29,387 nucleotides of DNA, from contig JASFVU010000001.1 in assembly GCA_050049665.1 (NCBI GenBank), positions 1 through 29,387 on the forward strand. The letters are read 5' to 3'. The notes beneath the pieces were generated by a model. That model saw nothing but the letters and a program-made list of their open reading frames with translations. It searched no databases and was not told the origin of the DNA. Every line of letters starts with the position of its first letter. Position 1 is the stretch's first letter. Below, piece by piece: positions 3,848-4,444 of the stretch. The DNA is from Bacteroidales bacterium (GTDB lineage Bacteria > Bacteroidota > Bacteroidia > Bacteroidales > UBA10428). The translations under genes were made by a program, and so were the position numbers.

Positions 3848-3935
3848 AGTGCCTAGAATAAAAAGTGCCTAGAGCGCCTAAAGTGTCAAAGGTGAAGAGT
3901 GCCTATAGTGCCTTGAGTTAGAGGTGTTTTGAGTT
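3848..3935 (+). repeat. Degenerate AGTGCCT(A/T)N short-unit array upstream of the four-helix-bundle gene
   Basis: AGTGCCTAG (3848, 3864), AGCGCCTAA (3873), AGTGCCTAT (3898), AGTGCCTTG (3907); the first unit starts at the base after the helicase TAA. Confidence 0.85.
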
Positions 3936-3993
3936 TTGAATGGCGATAATAGAAATTATTAGAATATGAAATGTTAAACGTAATAATATAAAA

Positions 3994-4353
3994 ATGAATA
4001 ATAAGGAATTTAGTAAAGAGTTAGAGAAAAGAACAAAAGATTTTGCTATTCAGGTTATCAGATTATCCTCATCATTGCCTAAAACAACTGAGGCAAGGGT
4101 CATAAGAAATCAACTCACAAAATCAGGCACAAGTATTGGAGCTAATTACAGAGAAGCAAACAGATCCAGAAGCAAAGCTGATTTCTATAGCAAAATCAGA
4201 ATATCTGAAAGTGAGGCAAGTGAAACTCATTACTGGCTTGAGATTATTCAGGAATTGAATTGGATTGAATCGGAGAAATTAGACAGCATAATAAAGGAAA
4301 CAAGTGAGATTCTTGCTCTTTTTACTTCGATTGCAAAACGATTGAAAGGTTAG
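3994..4353 (+). CDS. Four helix bundle protein (23S rRNA intervening-sequence protein / bAvd-like family)
   Basis: LEKRTKDFAIQVI, QLTKSGTSIGANYREA, SKADFYSKIRISESEASETHYWLEI: the SIGAN.EA signature; 119 aa; visibly more AT-rich than its neighbours. Confidence 0.92.
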   Translation: MNNKEFSKELEKRTKDFAIQVIRLSSSLPKTTEARVIRNQLTKSGTSIGANYREANRSRSKADFYSKIRISESEASETHYWLEIIQELNWIESEKLDSIIKETSEILALFTSIAKRLKG

Positions 4354-4444
4354 AGTTCGGAGTGTCTGGAGTGCCTAAAGTGAAGAGTGCCTTGAGTGCC
4401 TAAAGTGAAGCGTGACTGAAGAGCCTTGGGTTAAAAGTGTTTTC
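4354..4444 (+). repeat. 25-nt periodic (9+9+7) degenerate array downstream of the four-helix-bundle gene
   Basis: AGTGTCTGG-AGTGCCTAA-AGTGAAG (4361-4385), AGTGCCTTG-AGTGCCTAA-AGTGAAG (4386-4410), CGTGACTGA-AGAGCCTTG-GGTTAAA (4411-4435). Confidence 0.88.

What the first reader, a model, noticed from the sequence alone, without database searches (positions are those of the whole stretch)
3848..4444. Four-helix-bundle (IVP/bAvd-like) gene packaged between periodic AGTGCC repeat arrays: candidate mobile or regulatory cassette
Seen: a 119 aa four-helix-bundle gene, more AT-rich than its neighbours, has the same repeat family on both sides. The right array is a clean 25-nt period (9+9+7) x3 at 4361-4435; the left array (3848-3921) uses the same 9-mers. 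No transposase, integrase, reverse transcriptase or rRNA is nearby. Established: this family occurs in 23S rRNA intervening sequences and is related to bAvd, the nucleic-acid-binding accessory protein of diversity-generating retroelements. Inference: the repeats may be binding sites for the protein, or the ends of a gene-plus-repeat unit that inserts at gene 3' ends. I know of no characterised mechanism, so this is the best candidate here for an undescribed system.
Basis: partly seen in the sequence, partly recalled or inferred. Interest (0 to 1): 0.78.

Follow-up and report, generated by a model that had tools for sequence, protein, structure and literature searches.

The report
Repeat-bracketed four-helix-bundle gene cassette
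A small gene of the "23S rRNA intervening-sequence protein" family sits between arrays of a 9-base repeat that travel with this gene lineage across at least six bacterial phyla, which suggests that this long-unexplained protein family recognises its own flanking repeats.

Summary
A 119-aa PF05635 gene (3994-4353) has AGTGCCT-type arrays on both sides.

The unit is a discrete cassette. The helicase/yjbQ junction is empty in some congeners. One congener holds the same cassette with the gene flipped. Others hold gene-less arrays of other repeat types.

Eighty relatives of this protein (61-72% identity) come from six phyla and, with the in-genus copies, 53 genomic contexts. Nearly all carry the same TA(A/G)AGT core at 9-nt spacing: forward upstream, inverted downstream. 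Synonymous sites in these genes are saturated. Two other protein clades, each with a member in this genome, have their own cores (TGAG, or AGC/TAG) at 7-nt spacing. Within one clade the repeat variant follows the protein tree.

In Flavobacteriaceae the cassette lies exactly between an abutting stop and start codon.

I read it as an rRNA-IVS-type selfish cassette living in mRNA spacers, whose arms are cognate to its protein. RNA processing, protein binding and the means of movement are inferred, not shown.

This scan has noted the same design before on other DNA. I found no paper that describes it outside rRNA.

The parts
2414..3847 (+). RecD/PIF1-type helicase gene, the upstream neighbour. Its TAA stop (3845-3847) lies inside the first repeat unit.
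   Evidence: Pfam AAA_30, UvrD_C_2 and PIF1; sequence read.
3839..3930 (+). Left forward array (L): 9+9+7-nt units of the AGTGCCTAA / AGTGAAG type, with a non-periodic tail.
   Evidence: D1, D2. It is 77% identical to 4384-4443 over 60 nt.
3931..3993 (+). AT-rich leader between the left array and the start codon.
   Evidence: One sigma-70-like match at 3936-3965, at chance level.
3994..4353 (+). IVP/S23p four-helix-bundle gene, 119 aa, intact.
   Evidence: Pfam PF05635, E 1.4e-22. PDB 2RLD by sequence, E 5e-20. AlphaFold2 model with pLDDT 96.2 and four helices. Foldseek TM-scores: 2RLD 0.82-0.90, 2GSC 0.80-0.85, bAvd 4DWL 0.73-0.80.
4354..4443 (+). Right forward array (R1): a direct copy of the left array, with 25-nt period (9+9+7).
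   Evidence: TRF score 92; D1 and D2.
4444..4464 (.). Non-periodic loop segment between R1 and R2. It is also present in a gene-less copy on contig C172 and in contigs of other samples.
4465..4524 (-). Inverted array (R2): degenerate complement of L and R1 (AGTACTT / AACTTTA units). It ends 3 nt before the yjbQ stop.
   Evidence: TRF period 16, score 71. Inverted pairs I1, I3, I4 and I6. R1+R2 hairpin -51.1 kcal/mol, z -3.1.
4528..4956 (-). yjbQ/UPF0047 gene, the convergent downstream neighbour.
   Evidence: Pfam UPF0047, E 5e-36.

Best explanation
The locus is a compact, horizontally spread cassette of the same design as ORF-bearing 23S rRNA intervening sequences, but it sits in an mRNA spacer. 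It consists of an IVP/S23p gene, whose solved family members are four-helix-bundle homopentamers, bracketed by arrays of a short repeat. The arrays are forward upstream and inverted downstream. Here an extra forward array (R1) pairs locally with the inverted one (R2).

Shown:
- The cassette is present, absent or flipped at one junction in congeners.
- Gene and arms move together into many genomic contexts and phyla.
- Each protein clade keeps its own repeat core and spacing, although neutral sites are saturated.
- The gene is nearly always co-oriented with its neighbours.
- The arms are predicted to pair.

Inferred:
- The cassette is transcribed by read-through from the host gene.
- The arms pair in the transcript into a stem that RNase III can cut, as in rRNA intervening sequences.
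- The conserved core, TA(A/G)AGT every 9 nt, is the site read by the protein ring, so each protein lineage is cognate to its own arms.

How the cassette moves is unknown.
For: Anatomy.

Presence and absence at the helicase/yjbQ junction in the genus:
- Empty in G018 (25 nt), G033 (about 30 nt) and G035.
- Same cassette family with the gene on the other strand in G019.
- Gene-less arrays of other units in G010, G009, G016, G024, G006, G007 and G011.

Repeat type follows the protein clade:
- In-genus homologues at other loci (60-71% identity) have AGTG(C/T)CTAAAGT arms.
- Eighty loci with 61-72% identical proteins come from Bacteroidota, Thermodesulfobacteriota, Myxococcota, Planctomycetota, Gemmatimonadota and Calditrichota. 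With the in-genus copies they occupy 53 contexts.
- In their oriented flanks, AAAGT is at 18.3 per kb against 2.0 in far flanks.
- 5-mer cross table: AAGTG 13.0 / 2.4 / 1.5 per kb in clades A / B / C; GTGAG 2.1 / 18.5 / 1.2; CAGCT 0.2 / 0.3 / 5.5.
- Core spacing is 9 nt in clade A and 7 nt in B and C.
- Unit logos show a conserved core plus 3-4 variable bases.
- Protein identity correlates with flank 5-mer similarity at r = 0.46, against 0.055 for far flanks.
- Within clade B, the unit variant changes 12 times on the protein tree, against 22.0 +/- 1.7 in shuffles; 0 of 1000 shuffles reached 12.

Constraint: identity at four-fold third positions between clade-A copies is 0.334, against 0.303 expected from composition. 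Neutral sites are therefore saturated while the core persists.

Polarity and transcription:
- Upstream, forward cores outnumber inverted ones 261 to 40. Downstream, inverted cores outnumber forward ones 261 to 99.
- FgR is the commonest layout, and FgFR, as here, recurs.
- 57 of 82 cassettes lie co-oriented between two genes; 4 are antisense to both.

Pairing: flanks fold better than shuffles in 75 of 79 (A), 65 of 68 (B) and 26 of 29 (C) loci. The sense strand is slightly more stable in A (50:29) and C (22:7).

Exact insertion: in Flavobacteriaceae the same junction reads TAAATG or TAATG when empty and holds F-gene-R when occupied. Solo inverted arms remain in two genomes.

Gene-less cognate copies lie in G000 at C172 and C267.

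Precedent (PMC4990558): the Coxiella intervening sequence has tandem heptamers ahead of the S23p start and a 28-bp terminal stem, and RNase III cuts at the first repeat. Xanthomonas S23p is a homopentameric ring. Avd, the structural relative, sits in a solved DGR ribonucleoprotein (8UB7).
Against: - No RNA data could be found: no RNA run holds the locus. Transcription and processing here are therefore untested.
- In the fold of the whole cassette, the local R1:R2 hairpin wins and the left array does not enclose the gene. The whole-cassette z-score is only -1.6.
- Co-inheritance plus repeat homogenisation could explain much of the clade tracking without any protein contact.
- Within clade A, the protein-to-flank correlation (0.13) is no better than the far-flank control (0.26).
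- Clade B proteins are not basic, with median pI 6.7.
- Most short periodic arrays in this genome are gene-less. Many (the CTGATGAA 8-mers and the 'other' class) match none of the three IVP genes found in this 67%-complete genome.
- G016 has five AGTGNCT pairs but no clade-A gene was found; that genome is 69% complete.
- No target-site duplication, excision joint or circle junction was seen.
Confidence: 0.55

Rival explanations
1. The arms are only RNA structure. They form a stem that insulates, terminates or is cut out of the host transcript. The protein does not touch them and acts elsewhere, or is dispensable. Clade-specific cores then reflect common descent of gene plus arms, kept uniform by slippage and by conversion between arms.
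For: - The arms are predicted to pair far better than shuffles.
- RNase III excision of the rRNA counterpart is established, and the Coxiella authors judged the RNA more relevant than the protein.
- Units are more alike within a locus than between loci, 0.63 against 0.41 in clade B.
- There is no fine-scale signal within clade A beyond the control.
Against: - Pairing alone does not require any particular sequence. Yet one 6-nt core and one spacing persist across 53 contexts and six phyla while synonymous sites are saturated.
- The forward/inverted polarity relative to the gene is strongly fixed.
- The gene is intact and conserved at 61-72% identity.
Confidence: 0.25
2. The arms act in DNA, as hairpin or multi-site ends of a small transposon-like element, in the manner of REP/RAYT units or MITEs. 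The protein, or a host enzyme, assembles on them to move the cassette and its gene-less derivatives.
For: - Gene-less cognate copies and solo arms are dispersed.
- Insertion falls exactly between a stop and a start codon.
- There are many contexts and phyla.
- The gene is flipped between inverted arms in G019.
Against: - The protein is a 119-aa helical bundle. No nuclease or recombinase family matched it.
- No target-site duplication or excision joint was seen.
- A DNA-only element has no evident need to be co-oriented with its neighbours, yet the ratio is 57 to 4.
Confidence: 0.15
3. The arrays are ordinary slippage-prone intergenic repeats of the host, like cyanobacterial STRR heptamers. They lie next to the gene by chance or because both favour AT-rich spacers.
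For: This genome has about 115 short periodic arrays in non-coding DNA, most without a gene. The same junction carries unrelated arrays in congeners.
Against: - The AGTGCCT type occurs only with this gene, plus two small copies, in this genome.
- The same core flanks 61-72% identical genes in six phyla.
- The cross table is strongly diagonal, and the far-flank control is flat.
Confidence: 0.03
4. A remnant of a diversity-generating retroelement: an Avd-like accessory gene with decayed template and variable repeats.
For: The fold resembles bAvd, TM 0.73-0.80. PF05635 is the commonest family next to DGR reverse transcriptases (PMC10053308).
Against: - No reverse transcriptase is in the window or the genome.
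- The repeats are arrays of 7-9-nt units, not a pair of roughly 100-nt template and variable regions.
- The closest structures are the S23p proteins, not Avd.
Confidence: 0.02

Closest known systems
ORF-bearing intervening sequences of 23S rRNA (Coxiella burnetii helix 45, Leptospira, Brucella, Xanthomonas; PMC4990558)
   Same: Same protein family. Same size, about 0.45-0.7 kb. Terminal inverted repeats around the ORF. Tandem short direct repeats just ahead of the start codon: GACAGAT x3-4 in Coxiella, variable in number between strains. Regarded as selfish and possibly mobile.
   Different: Here the host is a spacer between protein genes, not rRNA. The arms are long periodic arrays with a clade-specific core and a 9-nt period. 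An extra forward array makes a separate downstream hairpin. RNase III cutting is not shown here.
bAvd, the accessory protein of diversity-generating retroelements (PDB 4DWL; RNP 8UB7)
   Same: Four-helix-bundle fold, TM 0.73-0.80. The solved relatives are pentamers. Avd is part of a solved ribonucleoprotein.
   Different: 14% identity. No reverse transcriptase and no template/variable repeats. The gene is flanked by its own short-unit arrays.
REP elements with RAYT genes (REPtrons) and MITEs
   Same: A gene flanked by inverted copies of a short repeat that is also dispersed without the gene. The repeat type is specific to the gene lineage.
   Different: The encoded protein matches no transposase family. 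The repeats are periodic arrays, not single palindromes.
Cyanobacterial short tandemly repeated repetitive (STRR) heptamers (own knowledge; term found in papers)
   Same: Tandem 7-nt units in intergenic DNA, of unknown origin and function.
   Different: STRR have not been tied to a gene family. Here the arrays come as inverted pairs around a specific gene, and the unit is 9 nt.
TRAP and similar ring proteins that read spaced short RNA repeats (own knowledge)
   Same: An oligomeric ring and a short conserved core repeated at fixed spacing with free spacer bases. The commonest arm length in clade A is 5 cores.
   Different: An analogy only: the fold is unrelated and no binding data exist.

Membership tests
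PF05635 / S23p / 23S_rRNA_IVP protein family | Profile match above the curated cut-off | tested here: met
   80.4 bits against a cut-off of 33.8, E 1.4e-22, covering profile positions 7-104 of 106.
PF05635 / S23p / 23S_rRNA_IVP protein family | Four-helix-bundle fold like the solved members 2RLD and 2GSC | tested here: met
   AlphaFold2 pLDDT 96.2, four helices. Foldseek TM 0.82-0.90 to 2RLD and 0.80-0.85 to 2GSC. phmmer to 2RLD, E 5e-20.
PF05635 / S23p / 23S_rRNA_IVP protein family | Homopentameric ring | not testable with these tools
   Only single chains can be modelled here. The pentamer is reported for Xanthomonas S23p (PMC4990558). 2RLD holds five chains.
ORF-bearing 23S rRNA intervening sequence | Inserted in a 23S rRNA helix | tested here: not met
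   No Rfam family in the window. The flanks are helicase and yjbQ genes.
ORF-bearing 23S rRNA intervening sequence | Terminal inverted repeats able to form a stem around the ORF | tested here: inconclusive
   3904-3919 and 4509-4524 are 94% complementary. In the fold of the whole cassette, however, R2 pairs with R1, not with L.
ORF-bearing 23S rRNA intervening sequence | Short tandem direct repeats ahead of the ORF | tested here: met
   Left array 3839-3930. Compare the GACAGAT repeats of Coxiella.
ORF-bearing 23S rRNA intervening sequence | Excision from the transcript by RNase III | not testable with these tools
   No RNA run was listed for the locus.
Diversity-generating retroelement (Avd module) | Adjacent reverse transcriptase | tested here: not met
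   No RVT_1 in the genome, which is 67% complete. None among the neighbours.
Diversity-generating retroelement (Avd module) | Template and variable repeat pair | tested here: not met
   The only repeats are arrays of 7-9-nt units.
REP/RAYT-type or MITE-type element | Encoded or trans-acting transposase of a known family | tested here: not met
   The gene matches only PF05635.
REP/RAYT-type or MITE-type element | Dispersed gene-less copies of the flanking repeat | tested here: met
   C172:325-395 and C267:7290-7325 in G000. Ten pattern matches in G019, which has the gene.

The most novel reading that the evidence does not exclude
IVP/S23p proteins are sequence-specific readers of periodic repeats. 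Each lineage, as a pentameric ring, reads its own 4-6-nt core at a fixed 7- or 9-nt spacing. Through this it maintains or spreads its own cassette and gene-less hairpin derivatives. That would make these cassettes the source of many of the unexplained short periodic arrays in bacterial intergenic DNA, and rRNA intervening sequences just one of their niches.
Probability: 0.25. Interest if true: 0.9.

Novelty: new variant of a known kind. Interest (0 to 1): 0.72.

Why it matters
PF05635 is a very large family. Structures have been solved since 2006, but no function is known, and rRNA intervening sequences have been unexplained for about 30 years. If each protein lineage has a cognate repeat core and spacing, that gives a concrete, cheap test: binding assays with swapped cores. 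It also points to cultured Flavobacteriaceae hosts in which RNA processing and mobility can be examined. It may also explain part of the short periodic arrays that fill bacterial intergenic regions.

Tried and rejected
- RNA evidence: no RNA run holds the locus.
- DNA contigs from four wetland and other metagenomes showed further gene-less copies but no excision or circle junction. One low-depth 123-nt joint inside the gene had only 23 nt on its shorter side and I ignore it.
- An exact-sequence look-up of YjbQ for strain-level variants found nothing.
- The whole-cassette fold is not significant, z -1.6.
- Sigma-70 promoter and terminator scans were at chance level.
- The fine-scale protein-to-arm correlation within clade A does not exceed the far-flank control.
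- I tested whether gene-less arrays at the junction in congeners match IVP arms of the same genome. The result was weak: 4 of 21 same-genome pairs share repeated 7-mers, against 17 of 84 different-genome pairs. Only G006 is clear.
- Whether the window and G019 copies share one ancestral insertion stays open. The free tree is unresolved and the AU test does not reject them as a clade, p 0.94.
- Protein charge is not consistently basic across clades.
- The literature searches found no paper linking this family to periodic arms outside rRNA.

Full report
**1. What is there**

Window 3994-4353(+) encodes an intact 119-aa protein of Pfam PF05635, 23S_rRNA_IVP, at E 1.4e-22. An AlphaFold2 model built on 61 sequences has pLDDT 96.2 and four helices. 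Its best structural matches are the S23p-family proteins 2RLD (TM 0.82-0.90) and 2GSC (0.80-0.85). The DGR protein bAvd (4DWL, 0.73-0.80) comes next.

The gene has 34.2% GC, against 43-46% in its neighbours. It lies between two convergent genes: a RecD/PIF1-type helicase (2414-3847, +) and yjbQ/UPF0047 (4528-4956, -).

The cassette fills the whole 680-nt spacer between them and contains three arrays:
- L, 3839-3930. Forward units of the AGTGCCTAA / AGTGAAG type, in a 9+9+7 register. The first unit contains the helicase stop codon.
- R1, 4354-4443. The same register, TRF period 25, score 92. It is 77% identical to L over 60 nt.
- R2, 4465-4524. TRF period 16, score 71. This is the degenerate inverted complement.

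AGTGCCT occurs 9 times in the window against 2.0 expected, and 8 of the 9 lie here. R1 and R2 fold into a local hairpin of -51.1 kcal/mol, z -3.1. L can pair with R2 (16 nt, 94% complementary), but it loses to R1 in the fold of the whole cassette, which has z -1.6.

No mobile-element gene, reverse transcriptase or rRNA is nearby.

**2. The cassette is a discrete, variable insert**

In 25 species of the same genus the helicase/yjbQ junction varies:
- Short and without such a repeat array in G018 (25 nt), G033 (about 30 nt) and G035. G010 (66 nt) holds a short array of another unit.
- In G019 it holds the same cassette family. The protein is 64% identical and the arms are the same AGTGCCT/AGTACT type. 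The gene is on the other strand, in a plain forward-gene-inverted layout.
- In G009, G016, G024, G006, G007 and G011 it holds 100-1000 nt of gene-less arrays made of other units.

The protein tree cannot say whether G000 and G019 share one ancestral insertion. The AU test does not reject them as a clade, p 0.94. If they do share one, the gene was inverted between its inverted arms.

A cleaner case comes from Flavobacteriaceae. At one operon junction the upstream stop and the downstream start abut (TAAATG or TAATG) in seven genomes. The same junction holds forward array, IVP gene and inverted array in at least ten genomes. Only the inverted arm remains in two. I saw no target-site duplication.

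**3. The repeat goes with the protein lineage**

The genome has three PF05635 genes. Each has its own flanking unit: AGTGCCT here, TGAGAG-type at L001, and TTTAGCG/TAGG-type at L002.

Clade A, this gene's lineage:
- In-genus homologues of the window protein at two other loci carry AGTG(C/T)CTAAAGT arms.
- A scan of one genome per species returned 80 loci whose protein is 61-72% identical. They come from Bacteroidota, Thermodesulfobacteriota, Myxococcota, Planctomycetota, Gemmatimonadota and Calditrichota. With the in-genus copies they occupy 53 different genomic contexts.
- Nearly all show the same arrays, forward upstream and inverted downstream.
- In the oriented flanks, AAAGT occurs at 18.3 per kb, against 2.0 in far flanks.

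Clades B and C:
- Clade B is 80 metagenome relatives of the L001 protein. It carries (G/A)TGAG plus three free bases.
- Clade C is a diverse set around L002. It mostly carries (C/T)AGC-type heptamers.

The cross table is strongly diagonal:

| 5-mer, per kb | clade A | clade B | clade C |
|---|---|---|---|
| AAGTG | 13.0 | 2.4 | 1.5 |
| GTGAG | 2.1 | 18.5 | 1.2 |
| CAGCT | 0.2 | 0.3 | 5.5 |

Core spacing is 9 nt in clade A (267 cases, plus 10, 16 and 7) and strictly 7 nt in B (651 of about 770) and C. Unit logos show a conserved core, TA(A/G)AGT in A and TGAG in B, followed by 3-4 variable positions.

Statistical checks:
- Pairs that share genomic context were excluded. Protein identity then correlates with flank 5-mer similarity at r 0.46, against 0.055 for far flanks.
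- Within clade B, loci were collapsed to 50 contexts. The unit variant (TGAGA, TGAGT, TGAGG or GAGCGTA) changes 12 times on the protein tree, against 22.0 +/- 1.7 in shuffles; none of 1000 shuffles reached 12.
- Within clade A there is no such fine-scale signal beyond the control.
- Four-fold synonymous positions between clade-A genes from different contexts are 33.4% identical, against 30.3% expected from composition. Neutral DNA is therefore saturated at this depth, yet the core and its spacing persist. Base pairing alone would not demand that.

**4. Polarity, orientation and derivatives**

- The forward core lies upstream of the gene and the inverted core downstream: 261 to 40 upstream and 261 to 99 downstream. 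Inversion of the gene between the arms cannot change this polarity.
- The plain layout, forward-gene-inverted, is the commonest: 32 of 82 in A and 38 of 78 in B. The window's layout, with an extra downstream forward-inverted hairpin, recurs in roughly a tenth of clade-A loci.
- Arms lie close to the ORF, at a median of 24 nt before the start and 20 nt after the stop.
- 57 of 82 clade-A cassettes are co-oriented between two genes of one strand. Four are antisense to both. This fits dependence on host transcription.
- Flanks pair much better than shuffles. The sense strand is slightly favoured in A and C but not in B.
- Gene-less cognate copies exist. In G000 there is a copy of the loop plus R2 plus a forward unit at C172, and a solo inverted arm at C267. 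Further copies appear in contigs of other samples.
- In the genus, pairs of AGTGNCT units are commonest in G019 (10), G000 (5), G016 (5) and G020 (3), against 0-2 elsewhere. The clade-A gene was found in G000, G019, G020, G006 and G009, but not in the 69%-complete G016.

**5. Mechanism**

The closest described thing is the ORF-bearing 23S rRNA intervening sequence. The Coxiella element has a 28-bp terminal stem and three or four tandem GACAGAT heptamers ahead of the S23p start, varying in number between strains. RNase III cuts at the first repeat. Xanthomonas S23p is a homopentameric ring (PMC4990558).

I therefore read the window's unit as the same kind of selfish cassette living in an mRNA spacer. 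It would be transcribed with its host gene, with arms that pair in the transcript and a conserved periodic core that its own ring-shaped protein reads. My confidence in the package is 0.55. That it is a discrete, horizontally spread gene-plus-arms unit I hold at about 0.9.

The main rival keeps the RNA stem but drops protein recognition (0.25). A DNA-level, transposon-like reading is next (0.15). Chance association with host slippage repeats, and a DGR remnant, are contradicted by the data.

**6. Novelty**

I found no paper that describes this design outside rRNA or links the family to cognate periodic repeats. The DGR review only notes that PF05635 resembles Avd.

This scan has noted the same design repeatedly on other DNA, including this protein clade with CTAAAGTG arrays. 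I re-tested those leads here rather than relying on them.
- the clade-by-core cross table with two control clades;
- the 9-nt against 7-nt spacing;
- the saturation argument;
- the tree test within clade B;
- the flipped copy at one junction;
- the exact TAA|ATG empty sites.

I class the finding as a new variant of a known kind.

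Noticed in passing
window 12500-12615: A gene-less hairpin made of 8-nt periodic arrays. Forward GGTGAACT / GATGAACT / GGTAAACT units face inverted TCATCACC / TCATCAGG units. The same unit type recurs across the genome.
   Followed up: partly
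G000 whole genome: About 115 short periodic arrays (period 7-10 or multiples) lie outside long open frames. About 23 resemble the L001-type TGAG/GATGAG units and 7 the L002-type TTAGC/TTAGG units. Thirteen are CTGATGAA-type 8-mers with no IVP gene found for them.
   Followed up: partly
L013 (G024) and L008 (G011), helicase/yjbQ junction: In G024 the junction is about 500 nt of pure heptamer arrays (GATGCTR, then some 45 copies of TACTGAY). In G011 it is about 990 nt with several array types and two copies of a roughly 90-nt non-periodic segment.
   Followed up: no
clade A and B loci (L031-L190): The forward cores contain stop codons: TAA/TAG in clade A and TGA in clade B. The upstream gene often ends in or within a few nt of the first unit (median 4 and 3 nt), and its stop-codon usage follows the core. 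The measure is biased, because open frames run into the arrays. In the window the helicase TAA is part of a TAAAGTGCC unit.
   Followed up: partly
clade A loci: The commonest arm length is 5 consecutive cores on both sides (18 and 20 of 75 loci). This equals the subunit number of the solved S23p ring. It depends on thresholds, and clade B is broader.
   Followed up: no
L060 and L091: IVP genes labelled Desulfobacteraceae and Calditrichaceae are almost identical, with branch lengths 0 and 0.03. This is either recent transfer between phyla or a binning error.
   Followed up: no
G020:C167:1061-1411: The clade-A copy in this congener has an in-frame TGA. It has forward-inverted hairpins on both sides. 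It is possibly a decaying copy.
   Followed up: no
L119/L120 (clade B): Nested arms: outer GAGCGTA arrays enclose inner GTGAGAT arrays around one gene. This suggests one cassette inside the arms of another, or a change of unit in progress.
   Followed up: no
L257 (G496) and L254/L256 (G508, G507): The Flavobacteriaceae junction that takes the cassette also holds other small palindromic elements in some genomes. One is a GGTCTC...CGAGCGCAGTCGAG hairpin pair and another a GTCATTTCGAACA element.
   Followed up: no
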